DNA of 64,000 bases from Archangium sp. (GCF_031412795.1 NZ_JANODR010000017.1:64001-128000), one strand, 5' to 3'. Positions 2,753 to 39,773 are shown, numbered from the stretch's first letter. Numbers and translations: made by a program. The notes: a model not told the origin generated them from the sequence alone.

Positions 2753-2790
2753 CGCCTCGGGCCGGGTGTTCTGGCCCGGCCGTGAGCCCC

Positions 2791-5769: not shown

Positions 5770-5902
5770 TTACCGAGGGCCAAAAATCGGGTAGACCCTG
5801 GCGCCCCACCGTCCGTTGTAAGGAAGCGATGGAGGGGTGAGGACAGGTACGAGGCCCTGAAACGGGGGACTGTTGGGACCGGGAACCTCAGACGAACGGC
5901 TG

Positions 5903-6502
5903 ATGCTCGCCTTCCGGGCGGGGGATGCTCGTGCGTTCGAGGTGCTGGTGCGAAGGCACCGGACGCCGGTGTTCAACTTCATCCTGCGTTTCACCGGCCA
6001 CCGTGCACGGGCGGAAGACGTGCTTCAGGAGACGTGGCTCAAGGTGGTTCGCAGCGCGTCGGAGTACGAGGCGAAGGCGAAGTTCACCACTTGGGTCTAC
6101 ACGATTGCGAGGAACCTCTGCGTGGACAGCGCGCGCAAAGAGAGCTACCGGCAGACGGCCTCGCTGGAGGCGTCCGTGACGGGTGCCGAGGGCGACGAGA
6201 GTCGTCCGCTGGGTGAGTCGCTCCCGGACGAGGGCGTGAGCCCCGAGCGTGGCGCCTACAACGCCCGGCTGCGGCCCCTGCTGGAGCGCGCGCTCGCCGG
6301 CCTGCCGGAGGAGCAGCGCGAGGTCTTCGTGCTGCGCGAGTACAGCGGCATCCCCTTCAAGGAGATCGCCGAGGTGACGGGTGTGTCCGAGAACACGGTG
6401 AAGAGTCGCATGCGCTATGCCCTCGAGGGCCTGCGTCGGCGCCTGGCCGAGCTCGGGGTGGATGGGGACCTGGCAGAGGACGGAAGGACGGTGGCGGGAT
6501 GA
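5903..6502 (+). CDS. ECF-type RNA polymerase sigma factor (sigma-70 family, group 4)
   Basis: Region 2 FNFILRFTGHRARAEDVLQETWLKV.. and region 4 EQREVFVLREYSGIPFKEIAEVTGVSENTVKSRMRYAL. ATG 5903 is preferred; TTG 5873 is possible. Confidence 0.85.
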   Translation: MLAFRAGDARAFEVLVRRHRTPVFNFILRFTGHRARAEDVLQETWLKVVRSASEYEAKAKFTTWVYTIARNLCVDSARKESYRQTASLEASVTGAEGDESRPLGESLPDEGVSPERGAYNARLRPLLERALAGLPEEQREVFVLREYSGIPFKEIAEVTGVSENTVKSRMRYALEGLRRRLAELGVDGDLAEDGRTVAG

Positions 6503-7851: not shown

Positions 7852-7854
7852 GCG

Positions 7855-8616
7855 TCAGTGCGAGCCGTGCCCCTCCGCCTCGGTAGGAGGAGGCGGCGGC
7901 AGGTCGGGGTTGTAGGCGCCGCTGAGGATGAGGAACTCTCCGCCAGGCTGCTTCAAGCGCGAGGCCTCGCCCTCGGGCGAGATGCCGACCGCGTGGATCT
8001 CATAGGCCGCGCCGCCCTCCAGCACATAGACGAGCAGGGTGCCGGGAGGAGCGTCCGCGGGGAGCGCGTCGGGCGAGGCCACCTTCTGGAGGCGGAAGGG
8101 CAGGGCGCCGAAGGAGCGTGTGTGGATGGTGGTGGGCTGGCCCTGGGTGAGCTGCGTGAGGGCCTGCCGCCAGGAGTCCTCGTCCTCGGGGATGGAGCCA
8201 TGCTTCTGCAGCTCGCTCACGGTGCGGCCGTGAAGCTCGCGAGCCACCCGGAGGACCTTCAGGTTGGCGGCATCGGAGTTGCGCCCCACGGCGGGGCCCT
8301 CCCGGTTTGCCCAGGTGGCGAGCGGGACGGCGGCGAGGATGAGCCCGGACCAGAGGAGGTGGGCGCTTCGCGCGCGCACGGCCTGCACGAGGACGACGCT
8401 CAGGCCCACCAGCGCCATGAGCGCGGCGATCACGAGCAGGAGCCGGGGCGGCGTTCCCGGACTGTAGGGCTGGAGCTGTGAGCGGGCGAGGTGCCGCAGC
8501 TCAGGCCAGGCTCCCACCAGGGTGATGGCGGCGAACCCGGCGAAGACGAGTGCGTGCAGCACACGGAGCGGCAGCGGGGAGGGCTGCCGCGAGGCGGTGG
8601 AGGACGACTTCTTCAC
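7855..8616 (-). CDS. Inner-membrane protein of unknown function, last gene of the pilin operon
   Basis: Three hydrophobic helices. Its ATG overlaps the pilin stop (ATGA on the minus strand). Its stop lies 3 nt from the convergent anti-sigma stop. Confidence 0.5.
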   Translation of the reverse strand: MKKSSSTASRQPSPLPLRVLHALVFAGFAAITLVGAWPELRHLARSQLQPYSPGTPPRLLLVIAALMALVGLSVVLVQAVRARSAHLLWSGLILAAVPLATWANREGPAVGRNSDAANLKVLRVARELHGRTVSELQKHGSIPEDEDSWRQALTQLTQGQPTTIHTRSFGALPFRLQKVASPDALPADAPPGTLLVYVLEGGAAYEIHAVGISPEGEASRLKQPGGEFLILSGAYNPDLPPPPPTEAEGHGSH

Positions 8617-8828
8617 GGGAACGGCAGGTTCAGCACCATGTAGAACGAGTCGTAATAGACCTGGTACGCCCGGAGGAACAGGTTGATGACGTTCCCCCTG
8701 CCGAACACGTCCGAGCTCAGCATCAGCACGAGCGCGAGGACGAGGATCCAGTTGATGAAGGAGTACTCCACCATGGCCTGGCCACGGGGGTGACGGCGGA
8801 GCTGCTTGAGGGTCGCGGGGCTCTTCAT
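8613..8828 (-). CDS. Flp/Fap-type (type IVb/c) prepilin, 71 aa
   Basis: MKSPATLKQLRRHPRGQAMVEYSFINWILVLALVLMLSS contains the Flp motif G/xxxxEY followed by a hydrophobic helix. GGAGGA Shine-Dalgarno (minus-strand coordinates 8840-8835) lies 6 nt before the ATG. The ATG overlaps the upstream gene stop. In the six-frame track this gene appears only as the tail of an artefactual 339-aa ORF. Confidence 0.65.
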   Translation of the reverse strand: MKSPATLKQLRRHPRGQAMVEYSFINWILVLALVLMLSSDVFGRGNVINLFLRAYQVYYDSFYMVLNLPFP

Positions 8829-9646
8829 GGGCGGTCCTCCTGCGAATCGGCTTCGGGCTCCGGCGCGGCGTCCGGATCCGGTTGCATCCAGGCCGGCAGG
8901 TTGCTGGCCGGCTCCAAGGTCATCTTCTTGTCGCCCGGGGCGGGCAACACCATGCGCGGCCTGGCGTCCACACCGTAGTCGCGCACCTCCATCGTATACC
9001 GGACGGAGGGGAATTCGATCTTCGCCAGGCGGAGCAGGGGAATCTCCCGGCTCATCCAGTAGCGCTTGAGGACGAGGTTGCCGCGGTAGATGACCTCCAT
9101 GGGCTCGGCCGTCACGGTGCCGGCGAGCGTCATGAGGCGCGCGGGCTTGCCGCGCTTGACGACGGTGTCCTTGCCGGCGGCGGTCTGCGCCGCGGACGGG
9201 GCGGCGCCGGGGCGGGTCGTCTCCGAGGGCTTCTCCTTGCCGGACTCGCTGAGGAAGTATGGCATGGCGTCCTTGTCCACCTCCTGGAGCTTCTCGAAGC
9301 CCTGGGTGACGAACAGCCGGGAGATGCCCTCGGGGCGAATGCCCGTCTCGCGGGCCACCAGCATGAGGAACTGCCCCATGGGGGCCTTCATCGCCGGGTG
9401 CAGGCCGAACTCCACCTCCAGCCACACCGCGTCGCGGTTCTGCGCGTCCTTCTGCTCGCTGACGACGGCCATGCGCATGAAGCCCTGACGGACTCCATCC
9501 ATCTGGTACGTCACCCACTCGCCCACGCGCGCGTCCAGCTGCGGGGGGGCGGCCTCGAAGAGCATCCGCCCCTCGGTCGACATCTGCGGCTGCGCCGGAG
9601 CGGCTCCCAGCAGCGTCAGGGTCAGGGCACACACCAGCGCGCTCAT
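8825..9646 (-). CDS. Secreted protein of unknown function (signal peptide) encoded between minor pilins and pilin
   Basis: Start MSALVCALTLTLLGAAPAQP is signal-peptide-like. The 5' end overlaps the preceding gene by 4 nt and the 3' end overlaps the pilin start by 4 nt. Confidence 0.55.
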   Translation of the reverse strand: MSALVCALTLTLLGAAPAQPQMSTEGRMLFEAAPPQLDARVGEWVTYQMDGVRQGFMRMAVVSEQKDAQNRDAVWLEVEFGLHPAMKAPMGQFLMLVARETGIRPEGISRLFVTQGFEKLQEVDKDAMPYFLSESGKEKPSETTRPGAAPSAAQTAAGKDTVVKRGKPARLMTLAGTVTAEPMEVIYRGNLVLKRYWMSREIPLLRLAKIEFPSVRYTMEVRDYGVDARPRMVLPAPGDKKMTLEPASNLPAWMQPDPDAAPEPEADSQEDRP

Positions 9647-10419
9647 GGCTTCTTCTCCTTCACGAGGCCCTGGCGCATGGCGGCCTCGCGCGCCTGGCGC
9701 ACCGCGTCCGCGTTGGGCATGCCATCCGGCCGATCCGTCCCCACCCACGACTGGGAGACGGCCACCCGAGCGCTCTCCAGCTCCACCAGCGTGGTCATGG
9801 ACTGCTCGGGCCCGCGCGCGTACTCGAGCACCAGGGTGCGCTGCCCATCCAGCTTGCCTCCGGACTCACGCACCGGCTTGTAGCCCGCGCTGGTGTACTT
9901 GTTGGCCAGCTCCTGGCGCACCTCATCCATCGTGCGCTCCACGATCTGCGTGCTGTGCCGCGAGCCGCCCGCCTCGTCTCGCGAGCCCACGTCCGCGCTG
10001 AAGAGCGGGCCCTCCACGCGGATCATCTTGTCCTGCCCGGCGGAGGGCGGCTTCTCGTACAGCCAGAGATCCTTGAGCACGGTGAAGCCCACCGTCTTGC
10101 CCATGTGCTTGCGCAGCACCACCGCCCGCTGCAGCCCCTCGCGGGTGAAGAAGGCGGCGACGACTCCCTCCTCCTCCAGGTCCCCGTCGACGACGACGGG
10201 GTAGCCCTGCTTGTTCCAGTACTCGGCGAAGTACTTCGCCACCTTCTCCATGGAGTCCTTCGTGGTGAAGTACGCCATGCGGTGGTACTGGCCGTTGATC
10301 AGCAGATCATTGCCGATCCGCGTGTGGGCGGTGCCCGGGTACACCGCGAGCTCCTGCTCCGCCCATGACGGAGAGGCCCACAGCGACACCAGGAGGAGCG
10401 TGAGGATCGTTACTCGCAC
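9643..10419 (-). CDS. Secreted protein of unknown function (signal peptide)
   Basis: MRVTILTLLLVSLWASPSWAEQ signal peptide. Overlaps the upstream TadE-like gene by 10 nt. Confidence 0.55.
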   Translation of the reverse strand: MRVTILTLLLVSLWASPSWAEQELAVYPGTAHTRIGNDLLINGQYHRMAYFTTKDSMEKVAKYFAEYWNKQGYPVVVDGDLEEEGVVAAFFTREGLQRAVVLRKHMGKTVGFTVLKDLWLYEKPPSAGQDKMIRVEGPLFSADVGSRDEAGGSRHSTQIVERTMDEVRQELANKYTSAGYKPVRESGGKLDGQRTLVLEYARGPEQSMTTLVELESARVAVSQSWVGTDRPDGMPNADAVRQAREAAMRQGLVKEKKP

Positions 10420-11552
10420 GTGATCTTGTTCTTGTTCTTGTCTTTGTTGGTGCTGGGATCCATGGCGGGCGTGTTGGGCATGTCCGCCATCTGGTTCTTG
10501 CAGCCCATGAAGTGCTCGCCGCGCGACTCGAACATCTTGATGTAGAGCGACGAGGCGTACGCGGCGGTGTCACGGAAGGGCGCGGTGTCGAAGCAGCGCT
10601 GCGGATCCTCGTCGAGGCCCGGGTACTTGTTCACGTTCTGCAGACCCGGGTGCGAGGGGTGCGAGGGCGTGTTGCAGTCCTGGCCGCCCGTGCCCGGCGT
10701 GTAGTTGTGCGCTACCACGAAGGTTCCCATGAAGTCCGGCAGGAAGAAGTTCGTCACCGAGCTGATGCGGTCCAGACCGATCTGGCTCAGGTAACCACTT
10801 ATACCAAGGAACTTCATCCGGCCCACCTGACGGAACATGCCGTGCTCCGAGCCACCGTCGTGCACGCCTGCTCGCTTGGGCTTCACGAGCGCGTCACCGC
10901 CGTCGGGCAGGTGCCAGCCGTTGGCGATGAGCGTGTAGCGGTTGCCGATCGGCAGGTTGCTCAGGTCTCGGCCACCCCAGTTGTCCACGGAGTAGAAGCC
11001 GCGCGACTCGCGCTGCAGGTAGCGACGGGGCAGCAGCAGCGACGCCAGGCTGCTGTTGACCTGCACCTGCACCTGGCCCTTGGTGTTGAACTTGAAGTGG
11101 TTGAGGAAGAAGTTGTAGCCCTTGCCGATCGCGCTGGACACCTCGGCGCCCGCACCGCCCGAGGGCATGACCCAGCTCAGGTCGATGCCCTGCACCGCCT
11201 GATTGGTGATGCTCACCTCCACCGGCGAGGGGCGCAGCATGATGGCGTAGCTGCCCCCGTTGGGCTCCAGGGAGTTGTAGTCCTTGTAGCGCTCGTTGGC
11301 CTCTTCCACCGTGGCCTGCATGGCGGTGGTGAAGGCCTTGTCGTGGTCGGCCTCGCCGTAGTCGCTCAGCGCGTAGCTGGTCATCTCCCAGGCCACGTAA
11401 CGCGAGGCCTCCTGGAGCTTGATCTTCGCGAGGACGATCTCCGTGAGGAAGATGCTGAACATCAGGATGGAGGTCAGCAGCGGCACCACGAGCGCGAACT
11501 CGACGGTGGCGGCACCGCGCCGGGAGCTCTTCTGTAGGCGATTGCGGAGCAT
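10410..11552 (-). CDS. TadE-like minor pilin/pseudopilin with large C-terminal domain (~380 aa)
   Basis: N-terminus MLRNRLQKSSRRGAATVEFALVVPLLTSILMFSIF is the TadE-like signature (GxAxVEFAL..P). ATG at 11552 is chosen rather than the ORF-track start at 11657. Confidence 0.7.
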   Translation of the reverse strand: MLRNRLQKSSRRGAATVEFALVVPLLTSILMFSIFLTEIVLAKIKLQEASRYVAWEMTSYALSDYGEADHDKAFTTAMQATVEEANERYKDYNSLEPNGGSYAIMLRPSPVEVSITNQAVQGIDLSWVMPSGGAGAEVSSAIGKGYNFFLNHFKFNTKGQVQVQVNSSLASLLLPRRYLQRESRGFYSVDNWGGRDLSNLPIGNRYTLIANGWHLPDGGDALVKPKRAGVHDGGSEHGMFRQVGRMKFLGISGYLSQIGLDRISSVTNFFLPDFMGTFVVAHNYTPGTGGQDCNTPSHPSHPGLQNVNKYPGLDEDPQRCFDTAPFRDTAAYASSLYIKMFESRGEHFMGCKNQMADMPNTPAMDPSTNKDKNKNKITCE

Positions 11553-11560
11553 GGCGGGCC

Positions 11561-13645
11561 TCAATGGGTGATGATCTTCGCCGGCGCGTCCTTGACGGCC
11601 GCGGGCAGCGCGTTGGCCAGCTGGTTGACGAGCGGCAACGACTCCTTGCCCTGCCACACGGCCGCCAGACGGGGCCGCCAGTAGGGGTTGAAGAAGTTGG
11701 GGTGCTCGGTCCAGTTGCCGGGCCGGTGGTAGTACGTCTGGCCGCGCGAGATGACGCTCATGCCCGAGGCCACGGAGAAGCCGGCGACCTCCAGCTTCTT
11801 GCGGTCGTTGTCCAGCTCCAGCGTCGCCGAGCCGCCGAAGTTGAAGGTGAGGCTCGAGCTGCCGTTGAGCCGGGACACGTCGTTGTGCGTGGCGCCCGTC
11901 GGATCGGCCCCCGTGTTGTGCAGCTCCTCCGAGTCCTTGTTGAGCATCACCCAGGCGGAGGGCTGGTTGAAGTCATGCTCGCGCTTGGCGGCCTGGTTGA
12001 TGCTGGCCTCGCCCTTCTTGGCCTGACCATTGTTGCAACTGCTGCACGAGCCGCCGCTGCCGCCGCCCGAGCTGTTGCCCCCCGGGTTGAGGCCCGCGCA
12101 GTCCCGCGCGTAGTCGCCCGGCTCGAAGTGGGGGAAGGGCGCCAGGCCCTCCCACGGGTGGTTGTTGTCCCGATCGTCGATGCGGACGTTGGCCGAGTAC
12201 ACATCCACCGAGAAGGGGCAGAGCCAGTCCGGCACGAAGGGGACCACGCACACCTCGTCCTTGTAGAGGCCCACGTTGGTGTCCGCCCTGCTGGCACCGC
12301 CGCTGTTCCTGAAGATGACCCGCCAGTGGATGCCGTTGCGGCGCAGATCCCTGTCGCTCATGGACCAGATGCTGGGCTTGAGCATGTCGTTGGGCTCCTC
12401 GCGCGGATCGCCCCAGCAGTGCCTGTAGTCGCGCTTGTCGTTGAGGATGCCTCCGGGCTCCTTGGGGCAGCTGAAGGGGTTGATCAGACCGATGTTGGAG
12501 GGGCCGATCTTGATGTAGTAGGTGTCGTCCGCGCCGATCACGTCACCCTGGGCCATCATGCCCATGGGGCTGCCGGGCGGATCGCGGTGCTCGCGGATCT
12601 TGTTGCGGCCCGTCCTGGGGCTCGCGGTGCCGTAGCCGAGCCGGTAGGTGAGCATGCGCGTCTGGCCCCACTTGGGGAAGCTGTTGAGCATGCTCTCCAG
12701 CGGCTGGAGCCAGCTGGGGATGGGCAGCAGGTCGCCCAGCTTGCGCGAGGTGACGAACGTCTCCGGGCAGATGCCCGAGCTGGCGTTGCAAGGGAAGCGC
12801 GTGGCGTTGCTGATGCCGCCCATCACGCGCTTGGCGCGCGAGACCTTGTCCCGCTCGTCGCGCTTGGTGGGATCCAGCGCGTCGAAGGGCTTGTACTTGC
12901 CCGTGAGCACCTGGCCGGGCGCGACGGTGGTCTCGTCGTAGTGCGTGCGGTTGAAGAGACACTGGTTGATGAGGCCCGCCAACGTCTGGGGGATGAACGA
13001 GTCCACGTGTGGATCGTTGGCCGCGATGATGGTGTTGGAGGTGCCCATCACGTAGGACGAGGAGGCCATCATCACCGCCACGGCCGCGCCTGACATGACG
13101 GCATTGAGCAGGCGATGGCCTGGGACCACCACCTTTCCGATGGCCCGGTCGATGAAGTCCATGCCCTGCTTCAGGAGGAGCAGCATCTTCTGGAGCACGG
13201 TGAAGATCGTGTTGATGACCCTCATCAGGGCTCCGATCCACGGCAAGACGTCCAGCACGGCGCAGATGATCTTCCATCTGCCCTTCCGGCTGTCCTTGGG
13301 GAAGCACGGGCCGATGGTGCGCATGAACCCGTAGATGTCCGTGAGGAAGGCCTGGACGAAGAAGATGAACGAGTTCAGCGACTGCCAGAGCATCGCCGAC
13401 ACGTAGTGCGACACCTGGGTGCGGTTGGTGAACGCGTAGAAGTTGAAGGCGCGCGCCTCCATGGCGGCCGTGGAGTAGGCCGCGGCGTCCGCCGTGTTCT
13501 GCAGGCGGATGCGCTCGTGCACGTTGTGCCCGATGTTGACGGTGGTGAGGAGCGCGATGCTCAGGATGAGCATCAGCAGACAGGCCATCACGAGCGCCTG
13601 TCCTTCCTGGCGCTGGAGGCTGCGACGAAGAGCGCGGGTCATCAT
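11561..13645 (-). CDS. TadG-like protein (Tad_N N-terminal domain), 694 aa, Cys-rich C-terminal region
   Basis: QEGQALVMACLLMLILSIALLTTVNIGHNVHERIRLQNTADAAAYSTA matches the Tad_N (TadG-like N-terminal) pattern. Gly/Ser/Cys-rich loop NSSGGGSGGSCSSCNNG. No VWA motif was recognised. Confidence 0.7.
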   Translation of the reverse strand: MMTRALRRSLQRQEGQALVMACLLMLILSIALLTTVNIGHNVHERIRLQNTADAAAYSTAAMEARAFNFYAFTNRTQVSHYVSAMLWQSLNSFIFFVQAFLTDIYGFMRTIGPCFPKDSRKGRWKIICAVLDVLPWIGALMRVINTIFTVLQKMLLLLKQGMDFIDRAIGKVVVPGHRLLNAVMSGAAVAVMMASSSYVMGTSNTIIAANDPHVDSFIPQTLAGLINQCLFNRTHYDETTVAPGQVLTGKYKPFDALDPTKRDERDKVSRAKRVMGGISNATRFPCNASSGICPETFVTSRKLGDLLPIPSWLQPLESMLNSFPKWGQTRMLTYRLGYGTASPRTGRNKIREHRDPPGSPMGMMAQGDVIGADDTYYIKIGPSNIGLINPFSCPKEPGGILNDKRDYRHCWGDPREEPNDMLKPSIWSMSDRDLRRNGIHWRVIFRNSGGASRADTNVGLYKDEVCVVPFVPDWLCPFSVDVYSANVRIDDRDNNHPWEGLAPFPHFEPGDYARDCAGLNPGGNSSGGGSGGSCSSCNNGQAKKGEASINQAAKREHDFNQPSAWVMLNKDSEELHNTGADPTGATHNDVSRLNGSSSLTFNFGGSATLELDNDRKKLEVAGFSVASGMSVISRGQTYYHRPGNWTEHPNFFNPYWRPRLAAVWQGKESLPLVNQLANALPAAVKDAPAKIITH

Positions 13646-13649
13646 GGGT

Positions 13650-14627
13650 TTACAGGCCCCAGCTGGGCTTCAGGTGCATCAGCCACTTGTAGTAGAAGTT
13701 CGACTGCATCCGCATGCTGTAGGTGGCCGTCAGCGGGATGAAGTAGCGCTTGCCGCCGATGAGGCCCGACAGGATGGGGATGTCCCCGCTGGCCACCGCC
13801 CACAGCACGGCCATCTCCACCTGGTAGAGCGTGTTGTAGCCGCGCTCGTGCCGGATGCCGCGGATGGGCACGAACTTCACCTGGCTCATGCCACCGCTGC
13901 GGTGGGTCATGCTCGTGTTGCGCTGGAGCGTGGGCCGGTCGATGGCGCCGTACAGCGACACCCCGGCGTTGGCCGCCCACCACGCGGTGAAGATGACCCA
14001 GTTGGCGAAGGGCACCTTCAGCTCGTACCAGTAGCGCAGGCGGATGCTCAGCACCGTGGCCTTGCGGTACGTCTCCTCGCCGTCGTCCGGAATCGACAGG
14101 TTGAAGAACTTGGCGATCTTCTGCTCCAGCTCCGGCACCTGCGGGTAGGCGTCCGGTCCGTCGAAGTCCAGCTCCTTCCAGTTGTAGCCCGTGCGCAGCT
14201 TCCACACGCTCCCGATGGAGTCGTACCAGGACGGGTTCACCGTATCGATGCGCACCTGGCCGAACAGGTTGGAGCCGTTGACGGTGGCCGGGATGATCCC
14301 GTTCTTGTTGGGCCACGCCAGCAGCTGCAGCGCCTCGTCATAGGCCTGGGCGATGGCCCACGTCTTTCCCAGCTCGAAGAGGGAGTCGGTGCGGCCCATG
14401 GTGGGCAGCAGCGCGATGATGGCGGCGTCCTTCATGCGCTCGTTGCTGCCGTTCCACACGATGCCCGTGCGCGCCGCGCTGTACGCCGCGTACTCGGTCA
14501 TGATCTTCGCGTGCTGCATCATCGTCAGCTGGATGATGCCCAGGCACATGAAGGTCATGAGCGGCAGCACCAAGGCGGATTCGACGGCGGCCTGACCTGA
14601 TTCCCTGGATTTGACGGGAGTAAGCAT
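13650..14627 (-). CDS. TadE-like minor pilin/pseudopilin (325 aa), first gene of the minus-strand operon
   Basis: ESGQAAVESALVLPLMTFMCLGIIQL is a TadE-like N-terminus. A 283-bp divergent intergenic region lies upstream. Confidence 0.7.
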   Translation of the reverse strand: MLTPVKSRESGQAAVESALVLPLMTFMCLGIIQLTMMQHAKIMTEYAAYSAARTGIVWNGSNERMKDAAIIALLPTMGRTDSLFELGKTWAIAQAYDEALQLLAWPNKNGIIPATVNGSNLFGQVRIDTVNPSWYDSIGSVWKLRTGYNWKELDFDGPDAYPQVPELEQKIAKFFNLSIPDDGEETYRKATVLSIRLRYWYELKVPFANWVIFTAWWAANAGVSLYGAIDRPTLQRNTSMTHRSGGMSQVKFVPIRGIRHERGYNTLYQVEMAVLWAVASGDIPILSGLIGGKRYFIPLTATYSMRMQSNFYYKWLMHLKPSWGL

Positions 14628-14774
14628 GGATGACGCTTTGTACCGACATTGTCACCTTCCAGGCATCGGTCAGGTGGACGCCACTGGAAGACGGCCGCTG
14701 AGCGGGGGACCAGGCCCGAAAAGGGGGTCCAACTCCAGGAAAACCAGAAAAGGCGTCAGGTTCGGGAAGCGCCT

Positions 14775-14802
14775 TTGACACCTGACATGACAGGTGGATA
14801 AC
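14775..14802 (+). promoter_or_regulatory. Candidate sigma-70-like promoter TTGACA-N16-GATAAC with embedded palindrome CACCTG-N6-CAGGTG, upstream of cpaB
   Basis: TTGACA at 14775-14780 and GATAAC at 14797-14802. The inverted repeat cacctgacatgacaggtg sits between them. Lies in the divergent intergenic region 14628-14910. Confidence 0.25.
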
Positions 14803-14910
14803 ATCGCACCCCGCTGGCGCCCAGGGCTCGCGCCACTCGTAACTCCGACACACCCAACGAGTTTCGCCGCCACCGCCTGGACGCCCCCCGCTTTTGGAGG
14901 TCCTCGAGAC

Positions 14911-15726
14911 ATGCTGAAGGGTAAGACTCCGCTCGTGATCGCTTTGGCGCTCGGCCTGTTGGCCGGCATCATCGCGTGGTCCGCCATCAAGAAGAAGGAG
15001 GCGGACGTGCGTCGTGGCTGGAACCTGGTGCCCGTGGTCGTGGCCTCCCAGGACATCCCCGAAGGCACCATCATCACCTTCGACATGATCAACCAGCGCT
15101 CGGTGCCCGAGCAGTTCGTCACCTCGTCGGTGGTGAAGCCGGAGTCGGCCACCTACGTGGTGGGGCAGAAGGTGCTGGTGGCGCTGCAGTCGGGAGATCC
15201 GCTGCTGTGGAGCCAGTTCGAGACCACGAAGGCCGCCGAGCGCCTGTCCACGCGCGTGCAGAAGAAGGTGCGCGCCGTCACGATCGAGGCCAAGTCCACC
15301 ACGTCGGTGGGCGGCTGGGTGCGTCCCAATGATCACGTGGACGTGGTCGGCACCTTCCGCGACCCGCAGACGGAGGAGCAGGTGGCGGTGACGCTGCTGC
15401 AGAACGTGATCGTCCTGGCCACGGGCAAGATCACCGGCACCACCAACGTCAACCTCATCCCGGAGAGCCAGCGCGAGTACAACAACATCACGCTGATGGT
15501 CATCCCGGAAGAGGCCGAAATCCTCATGCTGGCCACGGAGCTGGGCAACCTCACGCTCTCGCTGCGCAACGAGGAGGACGTGGACATGATCGAGGAGCGC
15601 GGCCGCGCCACCATCAGCACGCTGCTGTCCGGCGAGCGCACCCGCGTGCTCGAGCAGAAGCGTCGCGAGATCATCCAGATCATCAAGGGCAACGGCGAGA
15701 AGAGCGCCGGCGCGGGTCCCCAGTAG
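14911..15726 (+). CDS. cpaB: CpaB/RcpC-family Flp pilus assembly protein
   Basis: GGAGG lies 11 nt before the ATG. N-terminal TM LVIALALGLLAGIIAW, followed by a SAF-like segment and an RcpC beta-domain (GDPLLWSQF, VRPNDHVDVV). Confidence 0.8.
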   Translation: MLKGKTPLVIALALGLLAGIIAWSAIKKKEADVRRGWNLVPVVVASQDIPEGTIITFDMINQRSVPEQFVTSSVVKPESATYVVGQKVLVALQSGDPLLWSQFETTKAAERLSTRVQKKVRAVTIEAKSTTSVGGWVRPNDHVDVVGTFRDPQTEEQVAVTLLQNVIVLATGKITGTTNVNLIPESQREYNNITLMVIPEEAEILMLATELGNLTLSLRNEEDVDMIEERGRATISTLLSGERTRVLEQKRREIIQIIKGNGEKSAGAGPQ

Positions 15727-15770
15727 TAGTGGCCGTCTTCCTCCCCCGTCGCTGAAGGAAGTCCACGCGC

Positions 15771-16616
15771 ATGCTGGCCGGAATCGTTCTACTTCTCGTC
15801 ACCGGGTCGGTCTTCTTCTTCAGCCTGGTGATCTTCACCGTCCTGGCGAAGGCCTACGAGCAGTACCAGGAGCGGTACGTCGTCAAGTCGATGAACGACT
15901 TGAGCGACATGTTCCTGTTCGTGGATGCCCGGCAGTTGCTGGTGCTCAACATCGCCAGCATGTGCTTGATGGGCATCCTGTCGTACATCATCTTCAACCC
16001 CATCCTGTGCGTCATCGCCACGGTGTTCGGCTTCTTCCTGCCGATCATGCTGGTGAAGCACTACCGGGCGCGGCGCATCAAGCGCTTCAACGTGCAGCTG
16101 GTGGACGCGCTGCAGGCCATGGCCAACGCGTTCAAGGCGGGTCTGACCTTCCCGCAGGCCATCGAGCACGTGGCGCGCGAGGCGCAGCCGCCCCTGTCGC
16201 AGGAGTTCGGGCTCTTCGTGAAGGAAGTGAAGCTGGGCGTGCCGCTGGAGGAGGCCCTCATCAACATGGGCCGCCGGGTGGGCAGTGACGACCTGGAGCT
16301 GGTCGTGGTCGCCACCAACATCGCGCGCCAGCTGGGCGGCAACATGGCGGAGATGTTCGAGACCATCTCCAACGTCATCCGCGAGCGCTTCCGCCTCGAG
16401 GGGAAGATCGACGCGCTCACCTCCCAGGGCAAGCTGCAGGGGTGGGTGGTGGCGGCCATGCCGGCCATCCTCGGCATGGTGCTCAACTACATGCGGCCCG
16501 ACCTGATGGAGCCGATGATGGACCACTGGTTCGGCTACATCCTGGTGACGATCATCGCCATCATGGAAGTGCTGGGCGTGCTCATCATCCGGCGCATCGT
16601 CAACATCGATATCTGA
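15771..16616 (+). CDS. tadB: TadB-like inner-membrane platform protein (T2SS F family)
   Basis: T2SSF-type core LVDALQAMANAFKAGLTFPQAIEHVAREAQPPLSQEF flanked by N- and C-terminal TM helices. Confidence 0.8.
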   Translation: MLAGIVLLLVTGSVFFFSLVIFTVLAKAYEQYQERYVVKSMNDLSDMFLFVDARQLLVLNIASMCLMGILSYIIFNPILCVIATVFGFFLPIMLVKHYRARRIKRFNVQLVDALQAMANAFKAGLTFPQAIEHVAREAQPPLSQEFGLFVKEVKLGVPLEEALINMGRRVGSDDLELVVVATNIARQLGGNMAEMFETISNVIRERFRLEGKIDALTSQGKLQGWVVAAMPAILGMVLNYMRPDLMEPMMDHWFGYILVTIIAIMEVLGVLIIRRIVNIDI

Positions 16617-16625
16617 GGAGCTGTC

Positions 16626-17516
16626 GTGAGCGACGTCCTGACCTACATGTTGATGGGGGGCTCGGCGCTGATGTTCGCGGCGGCCGCGGGCTTCCTCGGC
16701 TTTGGCGTCTACCAGAACTACCTCGAGCGCTTCCTGTCGGAGGTGCGCGACGAGTCCGCTGGTGGCGTCAAGGGCCTGGGCTCGGTCACCATCCGCAAGC
16801 TGGGGGTGATCAACCGCAAGCTGATGTGGCCCGGCTACGAGTCCAAGGTGCGCCGCAACCTCATCAAGGCCGGCGAACCCGATGGCTTCAAGCCCGAAGA
16901 CATCATGGCGATGCAGGAGATCAGCGCCGTGGTGGGCCTGCTGGCGGGCCTCATCCTGGTCAACGGGATTGGCGAGAACCTCGGCTGGTCGCTGCTCTTC
17001 GCCCTGTTCGGCATGTACTACCCGCTCATCTGGGTGAGCGATCAGGTGAAGAAGCGCCACCTGCAGATCTCCCGGGCGCTGCCCTACAGCCTGGACCTGC
17101 TGACGCTGTCGGTGGAGGCCGGTCTGGACTTCACCGCGGCGCTGGCCAAGGTGGTGGAGAAGGGCAAGGCGGGCCCGCTGCGCGAGGAGCTTCAGATCGT
17201 CCTCAAGCAGCTCAAGATGGGCAAGACGCGCGAGGAGTGCCTCAAGGCGATGATCGCCCGGGTGGACCTGGCGCCGCTCACCACCTTCGTCACCGCGCTC
17301 ATCCAGGCGGACAAGATGGGCACCAGCCTTGGCAAGGTGCTGCGCATCCAGTCCACGCAGCTGCGCATCGACCGCACCCAGCGCGCGGAGAAGCTCGCGG
17401 GCGAAGCGCCGGTGAAGATGCTCTTCCCGCTCATCGCCTGCATCTTCCCCACGGTGTTCATGGTGCTCTTCGGCCCCATCGTGTTCCAGTTCATGTTCGG
17501 AAACGTCGGCGGGTAG
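16626..17516 (+). CDS. tadC: TadC-like inner-membrane platform protein (T2SS F family)
   Basis: GTG start with GAGGAG upstream. LPYSLDLLTLSVEAGLDFTAAL T2SSF core. C-terminal TM helices. Confidence 0.8.
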   Translation: MSDVLTYMLMGGSALMFAAAAGFLGFGVYQNYLERFLSEVRDESAGGVKGLGSVTIRKLGVINRKLMWPGYESKVRRNLIKAGEPDGFKPEDIMAMQEISAVVGLLAGLILVNGIGENLGWSLLFALFGMYYPLIWVSDQVKKRHLQISRALPYSLDLLTLSVEAGLDFTAALAKVVEKGKAGPLREELQIVLKQLKMGKTREECLKAMIARVDLAPLTTFVTALIQADKMGTSLGKVLRIQSTQLRIDRTQRAEKLAGEAPVKMLFPLIACIFPTVFMVLFGPIVFQFMFGNVGG

Positions 17517-17522
17517 TGCTCC

Positions 17523-19154
17523 GTGGGCTGCCTGCTCACCATCTCCAAGGGGCTGCAGCAGGGGAGGGAGTACACCTTCGAGCAGCCCGAGCTGCACATC
17601 GGGCGCACCCCGGAGAACGACCTGGTGCTCCAGGATACCGGGGTGTCGCGCCAGCACGTGCGCATCTCGGAGCGCATGGGGCGCTACTACGCCCAGGACA
17701 TGGGCAGCTCCAATGGCACCCGGCTCAACGACGCGCCCCTCATCGGGGAGCGCGCGCTGAATGACGGGGACCGGCTCGCGTTGGGCGCCGCGGAGCTCGT
17801 CTTCAAGGAAGTGGTGAGCGACGAGGACGCCACCCGGCCCATGATGACGGTGAGCCCGGTGGTCGAAGACGACGCCACCCGCCCCATCAAGACGATGCGC
17901 CCGGTGGTACCGGTGGAAGAAGACGACGCCACCCGCCCCATCCGACGCAACCCCACTGGCGTCTCCTCGCTCGCGGCGGTGGAGCCCTCGGGCCCCCCGG
18001 TCCTGCACCCCGTGGACAAGGCTCCGGCTTCCGGCGGAGCGGGGGGCGCCCGCAGGGCGACGATGGGGCAGATGCCGCTCCCGCCGCCAGTGCCCCCTCC
18101 CGCGGCCCTGGCCCGGCCCGAGCCTCGCGCTCCCGCCCTCGTCGATGACGAGGCCCCCACGACGGCTCCCGTTGGCAAGTCCGAGTCCGCTCCCGCGTCC
18201 CCGGGCCTGTCCGCCGCGGACAAGGCCCGGCGTCGGCGCGAGCGGGGCGCCACGCTCGCGGGCCAGTTCTCGCTCTGGTGGTCCGAGCTGTCCGGAGCGG
18301 GGAAGGGCGTGCTGCTCGCCCTGGCGTGCTGCTTCGTGCTGGGCACGGCGGTGGCGCTCGAGGTCGTCTTCCGCCCCTCGGCGGGCGAGCAGGCGACCAC
18401 GGGTCCAGAGCCCACGGTGCTGGGCCTCCAGGTGGTGCCGGACTCGTTCGGCCTGGGCAACGACGTGAAGTGGTCCCAGCCGGACCTGAAGACCTTCGAC
18501 TTCGAGTTCGTCTCGCCCACCCGCGCCGTGGTGGTGGTGCGCTACCAGGCCAGCGGCATCTCCAAGGACGAGGTCTCCGTCTCCATCAACGCGGTGCCCG
18601 TGGGCTTCATCCCCGCCGACACCATCAATGCCTCGGAGCGGGAGGTGCAGCAGATCCTCTCTCCGGCTGTGCTCAAACGAAATGAGCGCAACCAGCTCGT
18701 CTTCGACAACGTGCACAACCCCCCCGGCCGTAACGGCTGGCGGGTGTGGAACCTGAAGCTGGAGATCATCCCCGTGCCGGAGCTGCCTCCGGAGAAGCTG
18801 CTGGAGACCGCGCGCGACTACGCGGCCCAGGCCCGCGCGTACTACGATCAGCGCGAGGTGGGTGCCGAGAACCTCTTCCGCTCCTGGGAGAGCTTCCGCT
18901 CGGCGTGGATCACCCTGGAGGCCCTGGACGAGAAGCCGGACCTCTACCAGGATGTGCGCTACATGCTGGGCCAGGTGGCGGTGGACCTGGACCACAAGTG
19001 CGGGCAGTTGATGCTGGATTTCAAACGGAACATCCAGTTCAAGGACAGGAAGCGGGCAGCCGCGGCACTGGCCAACGTCAAGACGCACTTCCCTACAGCG
19101 GCGCATCGCTGCCACAATCTGGCGGTCGAAAAAGCCAACGAGTACGGGCTGTAA
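17523..19154 (+). CDS. FHA-domain bitopic membrane protein with DDATRP repeats and ~280-aa C-terminal domain of unknown function
   Basis: N-terminal FHA domain (LHIGRTPENDLVLQDTGVSRQHVRI...SSNGTRLN). TM VLLALACCFVLGTAVALEVVF. The GTG start lies 7 nt after the tadC stop. Confidence 0.75.
   Translation: MGCLLTISKGLQQGREYTFEQPELHIGRTPENDLVLQDTGVSRQHVRISERMGRYYAQDMGSSNGTRLNDAPLIGERALNDGDRLALGAAELVFKEVVSDEDATRPMMTVSPVVEDDATRPIKTMRPVVPVEEDDATRPIRRNPTGVSSLAAVEPSGPPVLHPVDKAPASGGAGGARRATMGQMPLPPPVPPPAALARPEPRAPALVDDEAPTTAPVGKSESAPASPGLSAADKARRRRERGATLAGQFSLWWSELSGAGKGVLLALACCFVLGTAVALEVVFRPSAGEQATTGPEPTVLGLQVVPDSFGLGNDVKWSQPDLKTFDFEFVSPTRAVVVVRYQASGISKDEVSVSINAVPVGFIPADTINASEREVQQILSPAVLKRNERNQLVFDNVHNPPGRNGWRVWNLKLEIIPVPELPPEKLLETARDYAAQARAYYDQREVGAENLFRSWESFRSAWITLEALDEKPDLYQDVRYMLGQVAVDLDHKCGQLMLDFKRNIQFKDRKRAAAALANVKTHFPTAAHRCHNLAVEKANEYGL
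17820..17948 (+). repeat. Three tandem coding repeats D(E/D)DATRP(M/I)xT(V/M)xPVV inside the FHA protein gene
   Basis: gacga(g/c)gacgccacccg(g/c)ccc recurs three times at about 45-nt spacing. Confidence 0.6.
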
Positions 19155-19192
19155 GGTCCGGGCTCGAGCACGAAATGAAGTGGTGATCTGCC

Positions 19193-21007
19193 ATGTCGAA
19201 CGGTTCTCCCCCCACCCGTCGTCGCCCGACCTCGACCAACAGCTCGGCCGCGGGTTCCACCGACCCGCGCCCCGCGGTGCGCAAGACGGCCGCCGCGCCG
19301 GCCGTTCGGGAGCCTGTCCCGGTGCTGGGCACCAAGCTGGTGGTGTCCGCCGGCCCTCAAGCCGGTGCGGAGTTCGGGCTGGAGGATGGCGAGTACGTCA
19401 TCGGTCGCGCCAACGACAACCCCATCTGCATCCCGGACACCTCGGTGTCGCGCAAGCACGTGCTGGTGCGCCGCGTGGGCGGGGGCTGGGCGGCCAGCGA
19501 CCTGGGCTCCGGCAACGGCACCCTCATCAACGGCGAGCCCATCACCGATGAGGTGCCGCTGTCCCACGGCGACGTGCTCACGCTGGGCGACACGGAGGTG
19601 ACGTTCAACGACACCTCCAACGCCACGATGATGATGCCGATGCCCTCGGCGCCTCCGTCGCGTCCGGCCCGGGGTGGCTCGCGTCCCTCCGCTCCCGCCG
19701 CCGCTGCCGCTGCTCCCGCCGAGGCCGAGGAGGGGGGCGAGGCCGGTGGTGCTCCGCGTCGTCCGCCGCCCCGTCCCGAGTCCCGCGTGCGCCCGGGTCG
19801 TGGGGGTCGCGGTGCCGCCGCGCCGGATCCGGCGGCGCAGCAGCGCAAGAAGCGCCTGCTCATCCTCACCGCGGCCGTCTTCGTGATGCTCGTGGGCCTG
19901 CTGGCCATCATCAAGTCCAAGCAGCAGGAGGAGGCCGCGGCCCAGCTCGCCGCGGCGAAGGTCGCCCAGGAAGCGCGTGCTCAGCTCGCCGCCCTCTTCC
20001 AGGACGCCAAGAACCTCATCCGCGAGAACAAGTGGAAGGACGCCAAGGCGAAGCTGCTGGAGCTCCAGGAGGCCGATCCCGAGTACGTGCAGCTCGAGGA
20101 CTACCTGGCGCGCGTGGACAAGGAGATTCCCAACCAGGATGCGCTCGACGAGGCCAAGGCGGCGCTGGACAAGAACCAGCTCGGCCCGGCGGCGTCCGCG
20201 GTCAACAAGGTGGCCAAGGACACCCAGCTCTTCGAGCAGGTGCGCCTCGTGAAGCTGGGCCTCAAGGAGAAGGCCGACAAGCGCGTGCGGGAGGCCCAGG
20301 CGCTGATGGATCAGAAGCAGCTGGATCAGGCCAAGCTCGTCGTGGATGACGTGCTCGTCGCCGACCCCGAGCACCGCGATGGCAAGGTCATCTCCGAGCA
20401 GGTCAATGCCGCCATCGAGCTGCGTGATCGGCCCGCGCCCGTGGACCGCGGGCCCGCGCCCGTCCATCCGTGGGATCAGGCCGTGGACCGCTTCCGGGAT
20501 GGAGATCTCCAGGGCGCGGTGGCCATCGTCAACGCCTGCGCGGGCAAGAAGCCGCAGTGCAAGACGCTCATGGGCCAGATGACGGACTTCGGCAACCTCT
20601 ACAAGAAGCTGGAGGACCTGGACGCCAAGGGCCTGGGGCGGCTGCTGGACCTGGACAAGAAGATCACCAACGGTCGCGGTAGCAGCAAGATGGCGCGCAA
20701 CGCCGGAACGCGTGCCTCCAACATCTTCTTCCGCAGCGCCTCGGCGGCCAAGGCGTCCGGCCAGTACGGGCGCGCCATGGAGAACGCCCAGCGCGCCCTC
20801 CAGGCGGACCCCAGCCACGTCGGCGCCAACAACATCGCCAACGAGCTGCGGCAGAAGGCCAAGGACATCTACCTCCAGGCCTACACCATCCGCGAGAGCG
20901 ATCCCCAGGACGCCCTGCCCAAGTTCCGCGAGGCCATGAGCATGACCACGCCGGAGGACGAGACGTACCAGAAGGCCAAGTCGTGGATCGAGAAGCTCGA
21001 GCGATGA
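19193..21007 (+). CDS. FHA-domain bitopic membrane protein with Pro/Ala-rich linker and long helical/TPR-like C-terminal domain
   Basis: FHA domain (YVIGRANDNPICIPDTSVSRKHVLV...GSGNGTLINGEPI). TM LLILTAAVFVMLVGLLAII. The C-terminus is rich in helical repeats. Confidence 0.75.
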   Translation: MSNGSPPTRRRPTSTNSSAAGSTDPRPAVRKTAAAPAVREPVPVLGTKLVVSAGPQAGAEFGLEDGEYVIGRANDNPICIPDTSVSRKHVLVRRVGGGWAASDLGSGNGTLINGEPITDEVPLSHGDVLTLGDTEVTFNDTSNATMMMPMPSAPPSRPARGGSRPSAPAAAAAAPAEAEEGGEAGGAPRRPPPRPESRVRPGRGGRGAAAPDPAAQQRKKRLLILTAAVFVMLVGLLAIIKSKQQEEAAAQLAAAKVAQEARAQLAALFQDAKNLIRENKWKDAKAKLLELQEADPEYVQLEDYLARVDKEIPNQDALDEAKAALDKNQLGPAASAVNKVAKDTQLFEQVRLVKLGLKEKADKRVREAQALMDQKQLDQAKLVVDDVLVADPEHRDGKVISEQVNAAIELRDRPAPVDRGPAPVHPWDQAVDRFRDGDLQGAVAIVNACAGKKPQCKTLMGQMTDFGNLYKKLEDLDAKGLGRLLDLDKKITNGRGSSKMARNAGTRASNIFFRSASAAKASGQYGRAMENAQRALQADPSHVGANNIANELRQKAKDIYLQAYTIRESDPQDALPKFREAMSMTTPEDETYQKAKSWIEKLER

Positions 21008-36165: not shown

Positions 36166-36228
36166 CGTAGGTTCGATTTCCTTACAGAGCAAACTTCGAT
36201 TCTCGAGGGCGCTTCCGAGGGTCACCGC

Positions 36229-39767: not shown

Positions 39768-39773
39768 CGCGGC

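What the first reader, a model, noticed from the sequence alone, without database searches (positions are those of the whole stretch)
7855..21007. Split Tad/Flp-like apparatus locus with FHA-domain proteins and no ATPase, secretin or prepilin peptidase in cis (Kil-type?)
Two divergent operons together encode a Flp-motif pilin, three TadE/TadG-like minor pilins, CpaB, TadB and TadC, two FHA-domain bitopic membrane proteins and two unassigned secreted proteins. The window lacks the TadA/CpaF ATPase, the RcpA/CpaC secretin, TadZ/CpaE and TadV. Those parts must therefore be supplied from another locus. The gene content and the flanking synteny (bacN-bacO-bacP-padC and a wzm-wzt-wbgA O-antigen cluster a few genes away) match my recollection of cluster 2 of the Myxococcus xanthus Kil system, a Tad-like machine used for contact-dependent prey killing. 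If that identification is wrong, this would be an uncharacterised Tad-derived machine.
Basis: partly seen in the sequence, partly recalled or inferred. Interest (0 to 1): 0.8.

Follow-up and report, generated by a model that had tools for sequence, protein, structure and literature searches.

The report
Kil predation pilus genes, cluster II
This is the Archangium copy of "cluster II" of the Kil system, the Tad-like pilus that Myxococcus uses to kill prey on contact, so it is a known machine; the divergent two-operon layout comes from a clade-specific inversion of the pilus-tip gene cassette.

Summary
Window 7855-21007 holds 12 intact genes. One operon encodes CpaB (KilB), two T2SSF platform proteins (KilG, KilH) and two single-pass FHA proteins. 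The divergent operon encodes three TadE/TadG-type minor pilins (KilM4, KilN4, KilL4, together "Tip4"), one Flp-type pilin (KilK) and three unassigned proteins. None of the gene products scanned across the 64 kb matches an ATPase, secretin, prepilin peptidase or CpaE.

Gene-by-gene synteny with M. xanthus, anchored by the published kil deletion primers, shows this is kil cluster II (MXAN_4648-4661).

Corrections:
- The organism is an Archangium sp., not M. xanthus.
- KilK is an adapter pilin. The major pilin KilP is encoded elsewhere.
- In Myxococcus all the genes point the same way. The divergent layout here is an inversion of the 7-gene tip cassette, seen in all 12 Archangium/Cystobacter/Vitiosangium loci with covered flanks.
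- MXAN_4653 has no counterpart here.

New details: each block has conserved upstream elements. The two secreted unknowns occur in 34 of 34 loci that have Tip4 and in 0 of 31 that lack it. Their predicted folds are DcrB/Eag-chaperone-like and LolA/RseB-like. This is a known system with modest interest.

The parts
5873..6502 (+). ECF sigma factor; conserved upstream flank of the cluster
   Evidence: Pfam Sigma70_r2 and r4_2. Found upstream of the cluster in nearly all related loci whose flank is covered.
6499..7851 (+). zf-HC2 anti-sigma factor, counterpart of MXAN_4661 (counted in cluster II by Seef et al. 2021)
   Evidence: Pfam zf-HC2, 26.9 bits; one predicted membrane helix; position conserved; table.
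7855..8616 (-). u253: unassigned membrane protein, homologue of MXAN_4654 (39% identity); last gene of the tip operon
   Evidence: tblastn hit to L036 6504-7217, between kilK and MXAN_4653. Two predicted N-terminal membrane helices. No Pfam or NCBIfam hit. Present in 33 of 34 loci with Tip4.
8613..8828 (-). kilK orthologue: 71-aa Flp-type prepilin (adapter minor pilin)
   Evidence: Cleavage motif G/QAMVEY at residue 16 followed by a hydrophobic helix. Conserved in about 60 loci with a near-invariant C-terminus. The M. xanthus counterpart lies inside the published kilK deletion primer interval. Adapter function taken from PMC12075869.
8825..9646 (-). u273: secreted LolA/RseB-fold protein, homologue of MXAN_4656
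9643..10419 (-). u258: secreted protein with two tandem DcrB/Eag-chaperone-like domains, homologue of MXAN_4657
10410..11552 (-). kilL4 orthologue: TadE/TadF-like minor pilin of Tip4
   Evidence: Pfam TadE, 29.5 bits. Motif G/AATVE. 48% identical to the M. xanthus protein overall; first 50 aa 74%, remainder 20-58%.
11561..13645 (-). kilN4 orthologue: large TadG-like minor pilin whose C-terminal domain forms the tip extremity
   Evidence: Pfam PF13400, 36.4 bits. 694 aa, the same length as in M. xanthus. 13 Cys. First 100 aa 76% identical, remainder 28-56%. Role taken from PMC12075869.
13650..14627 (-). kilM4 orthologue: TadE-like minor pilin; first gene of the tip operon
   Evidence: Pfam TadE, 48.4 bits. 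Motif G/QAAVE. 61% identical to the M. xanthus protein.
14637..14679 (-). Conserved kilM upstream elements that moved with the inverted cassette: an 18-nt box (GTCCAyyTGACCGATGC) and a -10-like hexamer about 9 nt from the ATG
   Evidence: Alignment of 15 loci from both orientation classes. The box-to-hexamer spacing is 25 nt, which is not canonical for sigma-70. Promoter function is inferred.
14775..14804 (+). Sigma-70-like promoter of the kilB operon (TTGACA, 18 nt, TAACAT)
   Evidence: Consensus scan: 10 of 12 matches, 0.1 expected by chance. Conserved in 15 of 16 aligned loci from all three architectures, M. xanthus included. Similarity between inverted and non-inverted loci ends at the -35.
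14911..15726 (+). kilB orthologue (CpaB/RcpC)
   Evidence: RcpC 84.9 bits and SAF. TIGR03177 197 bits. 86-88% identical to M. xanthus KilB. The start codon matches the published kilB deletion primer.
15771..16616 (+). kilG orthologue (TadB-type T2SSF platform protein)
   Evidence: T2SSF, 65.6 bits. 90% identical to the M. xanthus gene bracketed by the kilG primers.
16626..17516 (+). kilH orthologue (TadC-type T2SSF platform protein)
   Evidence: T2SSF, 65.3 bits. 83% identical to the M. xanthus gene bracketed by the kilH primers.
17523..19154 (+). FHA protein 1, homologue of MXAN_4649: cytoplasmic FHA domain, one membrane helix, periplasmic C-terminal part
   Evidence: FHA 59.6 bits and Yop-YscD_cpl 63.4 bits. 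Membrane helix around residues 256-284. Three E(D)DATRP[MI] repeats, with the motif also present in orthologues from at least five genera.
19193..21007 (+). FHA protein 2, homologue of MXAN_4648: FHA domain, one membrane helix, helical/TPR-like C-terminal part
   Evidence: FHA 65.9 bits and Yop-YscD_cpl 68.6 bits; weak TPR_8 hit. Membrane helix at residues 222-240. 53% identical to the M. xanthus protein.

Best explanation
Window 6499-21007 is the Archangium sp. orthologue of kil gene cluster II (MXAN_4648-4661). This cluster is one half of the Kil system, the Tad-like (type IVc) pilus that Myxococcus assembles at prey contact sites to kill prey.

How it most likely works:
- The plus-strand operon starts from its own conserved sigma-70-like promoter. 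It makes the CpaB-type periplasmic protein KilB, the inner-membrane platform proteins KilG and KilH, and two single-pass FHA proteins. The FHA proteins probably link assembly to a phospho-threonine signalling network.
- The minus-strand operon makes the Tip4 minor-pilin complex (KilM4, KilN4, KilL4), the Flp adapter pilin KilK, and three accessory proteins.
- The ATPase KilF, secretin KilC, prepilin peptidase KilA, scaffold KilD and major pilin KilP are not in the window. They must come from unlinked loci, as in M. xanthus and Archangium violaceum.
- On prey contact the platform, powered by KilF, polymerises KilP through KilC. Tip4, attached through KilK, sits at the pilus end and mediates prey recognition and killing.

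What is shown here: gene content, orthology, the conserved upstream elements, the inversion, and the absence of the missing parts from the window. What is taken from experiments in M. xanthus: the function. What is inferred: the roles of the FHA proteins and of the three accessory proteins.

The divergent layout is a derived state. A clean inversion of the whole kilM-to-u253 cassette, including its conserved upstream box, occurred in the Archangium/Cystobacter/Vitiosangium lineage.
For: - Pfam and NCBIfam support TadE (twice), Tad/TadG, CpaB, T2SSF (twice) and FHA (twice).
- The Flp motif of KilK is conserved in about 60 loci.
- tblastn of 15 window proteins against 80 related loci shows the same gene set, bounded by the same ECF sigma/anti-sigma pair and by xseA.
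- The published kil deletion primers anchor kilK, kilB, kilG and kilH in M. xanthus AM003 on one strand, in the expected order.
- The annotation table of PMC8460266 matches gene for gene.
- Functions of KilB/G/H, KilK, KilL4/M4/N4 and KilP come from PMC8460266 and PMC12075869.
- No ATPase, secretin, A24 peptidase or CpaE among the window ORFs scanned, and no second Flp-motif ORF.
- Cluster I lies far from cluster II in Archangium violaceum and Cystobacter fuscus.
- Among loci with covered flanks, 12 are inverted and 22 co-directional. The kilB promoter is conserved in all three architectures, and the kilM upstream box travels with the cassette.
- In KilN4 and KilL4 the N-terminal helices are conserved and the rest is divergent, as the published tip model predicts.
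Against: - No experiment exists for this organism, and predation by this Archangium sp. was not tested.
- I could not check that cluster I and kilP exist in this particular genome.
- The layout differs from M. xanthus: the cassette is inverted and MXAN_4653 is absent.
- Pfam does not recognise KilK as Flp.
- The kilM upstream elements do not have canonical sigma-70 spacing.
Confidence: 0.93

Rival explanations
1. An ordinary adhesive Tad/Flp pilus locus, used for surface attachment or biofilm formation, that happens to be split. It would have no role in predation.
For: The recognisable domains (Flp motif, TadE, TadG, CpaB, T2SSF) are generic Tad components. Function was not tested in this organism.
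Against: The locus is orthologous, gene by gene and flank by flank, to the M. xanthus cluster whose deletion abolishes contact-dependent killing. It carries Kil-specific features not listed among canonical Tad components: two FHA membrane proteins, and Tip4-type KilN/KilL proteins that the published survey found restricted to Myxococcota.
Confidence: 0.04
2. An uncharacterised Tad-derived machine distinct from Kil.
For: The operon layout differs from M. xanthus, and three genes have no family assignment.
Against: Every gene, including the three unassigned ones, has a positional orthologue in M. xanthus cluster II. Core proteins are 83-90% identical. The layout difference is explained by a single inversion whose breakpoints fall outside the two promoter regions.
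Confidence: 0.02
3. A decaying remnant of a Tad locus that lost its ATPase, secretin and peptidase and no longer functions.
For: None of the three essential Tad components is in the window.
Against: All 12 ORFs are intact with GC3 of 0.80-0.96. The core proteins are highly conserved across genera. The promoter and ribosome-binding site are conserved. In relatives the missing parts sit in a separate cluster that has been shown to work together with this one.
Confidence: 0.01

Closest known systems
Myxococcus xanthus Kil system, gene cluster II (MXAN_4648-4661; Seef et al. 2021 eLife, PMC8460266; Herrou et al. 2025 Nat Commun, PMC12075869)
   Same: It has the same gene set: anti-sigma factor, KilM4, KilN4, KilL4, the 4657 and 4656 homologues, KilK, the 4654 homologue, KilB, KilG, KilH and two FHA proteins. 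It has the same flanks (ECF sigma factor upstream, xseA downstream). It also has the same kilB promoter and kilM upstream box. As in M. xanthus, the ATPase, secretin, peptidase and major pilin are missing from the locus.
   Different: The genus is different (Archangium sp.). The seven-gene kilM-to-4654 cassette is inverted, giving divergent operons instead of one co-directional array. There is no MXAN_4653 homologue; that gene is restricted to Myxococcus, Pyxidicoccus and Citreicoccus. The tip proteins are only 46-62% identical, against 83-90% for the platform proteins.
Canonical Tad/Flp pilus loci (Aggregatibacter flp-tad-rcp; Caulobacter cpa)
   Same: It has a Flp-type prepilin with a G/XXXXEY motif, TadE/TadF/TadG-type minor pilins, CpaB/RcpC, and two T2SSF platform proteins (TadB and TadC).
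   Different: There is no TadA/CpaF ATPase, no RcpA/CpaC secretin, no TadV/CpaA peptidase and no TadZ/CpaE in the locus. It has two extra FHA membrane proteins and three lineage-specific accessory proteins. In M. xanthus the function is killing rather than adhesion.
Tip4-less kil cluster II variants (many Corallococcus species and deeper Myxococcota genomes)
   Same: They have the same platform operon (KilB, KilG, KilH, two FHA proteins), promoter and flanks.
   Different: They lack KilM4, KilN4, KilL4, u258 and u273, and u253 was detected in only 1 of 31. Twenty retain only kilK between the anti-sigma gene and kilB, and eleven lack kilK too.
Type VI secretion Eag chaperones (SciW, PA0094/EagT6; identification from my own knowledge), DcrB, and LolA/LolB/RseB carriers, as structural analogues of u258 and u273
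   Different: There is no detectable sequence similarity. u258 is a secreted tandem repeat of the fold, whereas Eag chaperones are cytoplasmic. No ligand or partner is known.

Membership tests
Kil system, gene cluster II (M. xanthus MXAN_4648-4661) | Adjacent kilB (CpaB), kilG and kilH (two T2SSF genes) in that order, orthologous to the experimentally deleted M. xanthus genes | tested here: met
   86-90% (KilB, KilG) and 83% (KilH) identity to the M. xanthus genes bracketed by the published deletion primers.
Kil system, gene cluster II (M. xanthus MXAN_4648-4661) | Two FHA-domain proteins immediately downstream of kilH (MXAN_4649 and MXAN_4648) | tested here: met
   FHA hits of 60-66 bits, one membrane helix each, same positions as in M. 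xanthus.
Kil system, gene cluster II (M. xanthus MXAN_4648-4661) | Tip4 minor pilins KilM4, KilN4 and KilL4 with prepilin leader motifs and the large KilN | tested here: met
   TadE, PF13400 and TadE hits. G/XXXXE motifs in KilM4 and KilL4; G/QALVM in KilN4. KilN4 is 694 aa, as in M. xanthus.
Kil system, gene cluster II (M. xanthus MXAN_4648-4661) | Flp adapter pilin KilK | tested here: met
   71-aa ORF with G/QAMVEY. 58% identical to the M. xanthus ORF inside the kilK primer interval. Conserved in about 60 loci.
Kil system, gene cluster II (M. xanthus MXAN_4648-4661) | ATPase (KilF), secretin (KilC), peptidase (KilA) and major pilin (KilP) not in the cluster but encoded in unlinked loci | tested here: inconclusive
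   Absence from the window is met. Presence elsewhere in this genome could not be tested. It is documented for Archangium violaceum and Cystobacter fuscus by published gene indices.
Kil system, gene cluster II (M. xanthus MXAN_4648-4661) | Conserved genomic flanks (ECF sigma/zf-HC2 anti-sigma upstream, xseA downstream) | tested here: met
Kil system, gene cluster II (M. xanthus MXAN_4648-4661) | Co-directional gene order as in M. xanthus, and presence of MXAN_4653 (descriptive of the type locus rather than functionally defining) | tested here: not met
   The cassette is inverted and MXAN_4653 is absent. Both differences are lineage-specific and leave every characterised kil gene intact.
Kil system, gene cluster II (M. 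xanthus MXAN_4648-4661) | [quoted passage not shown] | not testable with these tools
   Shown only in M. xanthus (PMC8460266, PMC12075869).
Canonical single-locus Tad/Flp pilus | TadA/CpaF ATPase, RcpA/CpaC secretin, TadV/CpaA peptidase and TadZ/CpaE encoded with the pilin and platform genes | tested here: not met
   No T2SSE, Secretin, Peptidase_A24 or CpaE-type hit among the window ORFs scanned.
Type III secretion SctD (YscD/PrgH) inner-membrane ring protein, considered for the two FHA proteins | Full-length match to the SctD family model | tested here: not met
   Only the cytoplasmic FHA domain matches (Yop-YscD_cpl 63-69 bits against a cutoff of 33). TIGR02500 SctD scores 23.8 bits against a cutoff of 86.

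The most novel reading that the evidence does not exclude
The three uncharacterised genes that travel with Tip4 would form a Tip4-dedicated periplasmic handling module. They are u258 (MXAN_4657-like, tandem DcrB/Eag-chaperone fold), u273 (MXAN_4656-like, LolA/RseB fold) and the membrane protein u253 (MXAN_4654-like). They could chaperone the hydrophobic N-terminal helices of the tip pilins, or they could load a hydrophobic or lipidic toxin onto Tip4. Either role could account for the published but unexplained ability of Tip4 alone to kill prey without the T3SS*.
Probability: 0.2. Interest if true: 0.6.

Novelty: already known. Interest (0 to 1): 0.25.

Why it matters
The locus belongs to a characterised system, so the main value here is correct labelling. 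It is kil cluster II of an Archangium sp., not an orphan Tad fragment.

Three smaller points could help people who work on Kil:
1. The tip cassette and the platform operon each have conserved upstream elements. A natural inversion in one lineage shows that the two blocks can be separated.
2. Tip4 is gained or lost as a unit together with two secreted proteins of chaperone- or carrier-like fold. This nominates MXAN_4656 and MXAN_4657 as candidates for the unexplained T3SS*-independent killing activity of Tip4.
3. A [DE][DE]x[AVSF]TRPIRR motif, present next to the FHA domain of MXAN_4649 homologues in at least five genera, is a candidate phospho-threonine docking site for the FHA network that may trigger assembly on prey contact.

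Tried and rejected
- Pfam, NCBIfam and PDB sequence searches for KilK, u253, u258 and u273 gave nothing significant. A Pfam accession (PF27226) precomputed for some u258 homologues was not reproduced by the local Pfam copy.
- I looked for IS elements or long inverted repeats at the inversion boundaries. Only short 71-88% chance-level matches turned up, so no mechanism for the inversion can be named.
- The look-up of encoding contigs on the 100%-identical protein P0110 returned no record, so the source contig could not be fetched. The source was named only through the protein accession.
- I first read the kilM upstream box plus the AT-rich hexamer as a sigma-70 promoter. The spacing is 25 nt, so I dropped that reading and left the box as a conserved element of unknown factor.
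- My first motif count for the FHA protein used wrongly chosen reading frames and was redone with an anchored frame.

Full report
**What is in the window**

The window has about 70% GC, so I picked genes by third-codon-position GC content (GC3). Between 7855 and 21007 there are 12 intact genes in two divergent blocks.

On the plus strand, Pfam and NCBIfam identify:
- a CpaB/RcpC protein at 14911-15726 (RcpC 84.9 bits; TIGR03177 197 bits);
- two T2SSF platform proteins at 15771-16616 and 16626-17516 (about 65 bits each);
- two FHA proteins at 17523-19154 and 19193-21007. Each has one predicted membrane helix.

On the minus strand there are:
- two TadE proteins (13650-14627 and 10410-11552);
- one 694-aa protein with the TadG-like PF13400 N-terminus (11561-13645);
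- a 71-aa ORF (8613-8828);
- three ORFs with no family hit: 9643-10419, 8825-9646 and 7855-8616.

**The small Flp-like ORF is real**

Pfam does not recognise the 71-aa ORF. It carries the Flp cleavage motif G/QAMVEY followed by a hydrophobic helix. Orthologues in about 60 related loci keep a near-invariant RGQAM[VL]EYS motif and a near-invariant C-terminus, YYDSFYFVLNLPFP. It is therefore a conserved Flp-type prepilin gene. It is the only Flp-motif ORF in the 64 kb with pilin features; the one other regex match lies inside the polyprenyl synthase gene.

**What is missing**

I ran Pfam on the other GC3-supported ORFs of the window. They are housekeeping genes, bactofilins, O-antigen genes and others. 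None is a T2SSE/CpaF ATPase, a secretin, an A24 prepilin peptidase or a CpaE/TadZ protein. Three gaps between called ORFs (about 2750-3680, 35310-36230 and 39140-39770) were not scanned. The one addition is that there are three unassigned genes, not two.

**Identity of the locus**

The M. xanthus Kil literature describes two clusters, MXAN_3102-3108 and MXAN_4648-4661. Cluster II contains, in gene-number order:

| Gene | Product |
|---|---|
| 4648 | FHA + TPR protein |
| 4649 | FHA protein |
| 4650 | KilH |
| 4651 | KilG |
| 4652 | KilB |
| 4653, 4654 | unknown |
| 4655 | KilK |
| 4656, 4657 | unknown |
| 4658 | KilL |
| 4659 | TadG-like protein (KilN4) |
| 4660 | KilM |
| 4661 | zinc-finger protein |

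A scan of reference genomes with the window's KilB returned 80 loci. tblastn of 15 window proteins against them shows the same gene set between the same flanks: an ECF sigma/anti-sigma pair upstream and xseA downstream.

The published deletion primers map in M. xanthus AM003 (L036) exactly onto the genes that match the window's Flp ORF, CpaB and the two T2SSF genes. All four lie on one strand, in the order kilK, kilB, kilG, kilH. This ties the window genes to experimentally studied kil genes without relying on memory.

Identities to M. xanthus:

| Protein | Identity |
|---|---|
| KilB | 86-88% |
| KilG | 90% |
| KilH | 83% |
| KilM4 | 61% |
| KilN4 | 49% |
| KilL4 | 48% |
| KilK | 58% |
| u258 | 55% |
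| u273 | 48% |
| u253 | 39% |
| FHA proteins | 47-53% |

**The organism is not M. xanthus**

The best KilB matches (92-93%) are Archangium genomes. One window protein is 100% identical to WP_309888674.1 from an Archangium sp. contig of 145,935 bp.

**Layout: an inversion**

In M. xanthus and 21 other loci (Myxococcus, Pyxidicoccus, Hyalangium, Citreicoccus and several metagenome-assembled genomes) every gene from the anti-sigma factor to the second FHA protein points the same way.

In the window and in 12 loci with covered flanks, the seven-gene block from kilM to u253 is inverted. These loci come from Archangium species, Cystobacter fuscus, Vitiosangium and one unclassified metagenome-assembled genome. 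Four truncated loci show the same inversion.

The breakpoints can be placed from conserved upstream sequences:
- A sigma-70-like promoter (TTGACA, 18 nt, TAACAT; window 14775-14804) lies about 110 nt upstream of kilB. It is conserved in 15 of 16 aligned loci from all three architectures, M. xanthus included. Similarity between inverted and non-inverted loci stops at its -35 element.
- Upstream of kilM there is a conserved 18-nt box and a -10-like hexamer about 9 nt from the start codon. Both are conserved in both orientation classes, so they moved with the cassette.

So the inversion flipped a complete cassette, from the upstream box to the last stop codon. One breakpoint lies between the anti-sigma stop codon and the kilM box. 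The other lies between the u253 stop codon and the kilB promoter. No IS element or long inverted repeat remains at either boundary.

MXAN_4653, a 243-aa putative lipoprotein, occurs only in Myxococcus, Pyxidicoccus and Citreicoccus. It has no counterpart in the window.

**A third architecture and a co-inherited module**

Thirty-one loci, including many Corallococcus species, lack KilM4, KilN4 and KilL4. Twenty of them keep only kilK between the anti-sigma gene and kilB, and eleven lack kilK as well.

The two secreted unknowns follow Tip4 exactly. Both are present in 34 of 34 loci with Tip4 and in 0 of 31 without it. u253 is present in 33 of 34 and 1 of 31 respectively.

**Folds of the two secreted unknowns**

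I predicted both structures from alignments of 56 and 59 homologues:

Both folds belong to proteins that shield hydrophobic helices or lipids. The u258 family is small, with 202 representatives among 1.84 billion proteins. No paper in the library mentions these genes in its main text.

The 2025 paper reports that Tip4 alone kills prey without the T3SS*. It suggests an associated toxin or an intrinsic toxic activity. The co-inherited proteins are reasonable candidates for handling Tip4 or its cargo. This is inference only.

**Mechanism**

I take the function from the M. xanthus experiments:
- KilB, KilG and KilH are essential for contact-dependent killing and assemble at prey contact sites.
- KilP, encoded elsewhere, is the major pilin. 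KilK is an adapter. KilL4, KilM4 and KilN4 form Tip4 at the pilus end.

The window's KilN4 and KilL4 are 74-76% identical to the M. xanthus proteins over the N-terminal helix and only 20-58% identical beyond it. This fits a conserved docking bundle with a variable exposed domain.

The ATPase, secretin, peptidase and KilD come from cluster I. Published gene indices for Archangium violaceum place KilD/F/C/A at positions 9425-9428, KilB/G/H at 7029-7031 and KilP at 6485. Cystobacter fuscus is likewise split. I could not check this for the source genome itself.

**Verdict**

The system is already known, and the published survey already covers Archangium and Cystobacter genomes. The new details are the cassette inversion, the conserved upstream elements of the two blocks, the strict co-inheritance and predicted folds of the two secreted proteins, and a [DE][DE]x[AVSF]TRPIRR motif found next to the first FHA domain in at least five genera. 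These are useful leads, but they do not change what kind of thing this is.

Noticed in passing
window 827-1597 and 1619-2752 (+): Two adjacent genes encode proteins whose only recognisable domain is MshEN (PF05157, 56-59 bits). From my own knowledge, this is the c-di-GMP-binding N-terminal domain of MshE/GspE-type pilus ATPases. Neither protein has an ATPase domain. They lie about 5 kb upstream of the kil cluster, and I did not test for any link to it.
   Followed up: no
window 17523-19154 (+), residues about 100-145 of FHA protein 1: There are three acidic E(D)DATRP[MI] repeats directly after the FHA domain. A [DE][DE]x[AVSF]TRPIRR motif occurs one to three times at the same place in orthologues from Myxococcus, Corallococcus, Pyxidicoccus, Archangium and Citreicoccus. 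A Thr with Ile at +3 fits the usual FHA phospho-threonine preference (my own knowledge). This may be a docking site for the Kil FHA network.
   Followed up: partly
window 14637-14679 (minus-strand feature): A conserved 18-nt box (GTCCAyyTGACCGATGC) lies 25 nt upstream of a -10-like hexamer, which sits only about 9 nt from the kilM ATG. This suggests a leaderless or nearly leaderless mRNA. The box may be a site for a regulator or an ECF-type sigma factor rather than a sigma-70 -35 element.
   Followed up: partly
L033 (BNCN01000007.1, titled 'Comamonas sp. KCTC 72670'): This record carries a complete Myxococcus-type kil cluster II, with KilB 88% identical to the window and the co-directional layout. 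The record is probably mislabelled or contaminated.
   Followed up: no
L014, L015, L028, L030, L032, L034, L040, L044, L051, L059 (Corallococcus); L037 (Corallococcus terminator BB12-2): Most Corallococcus loci lack the whole Tip4 module and keep only kilK between the anti-sigma gene and kilB. One locus labelled Corallococcus terminator BB12-2 keeps the full co-directional module, while another C. terminator strain (L034) lacks it. Tip4 presence therefore varies within the genus, or within the species as labelled.
   Followed up: partly
L036 7373-8104; also L048, L050, L053: MXAN_4653, a 243-aa putative lipoprotein just upstream of the kilB promoter, is confined to Myxococcus, Pyxidicoccus and Citreicoccus. 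It is tandemly duplicated in some Pyxidicoccus/Myxococcus loci, with two hits per locus.
   Followed up: partly
   Followed up: no
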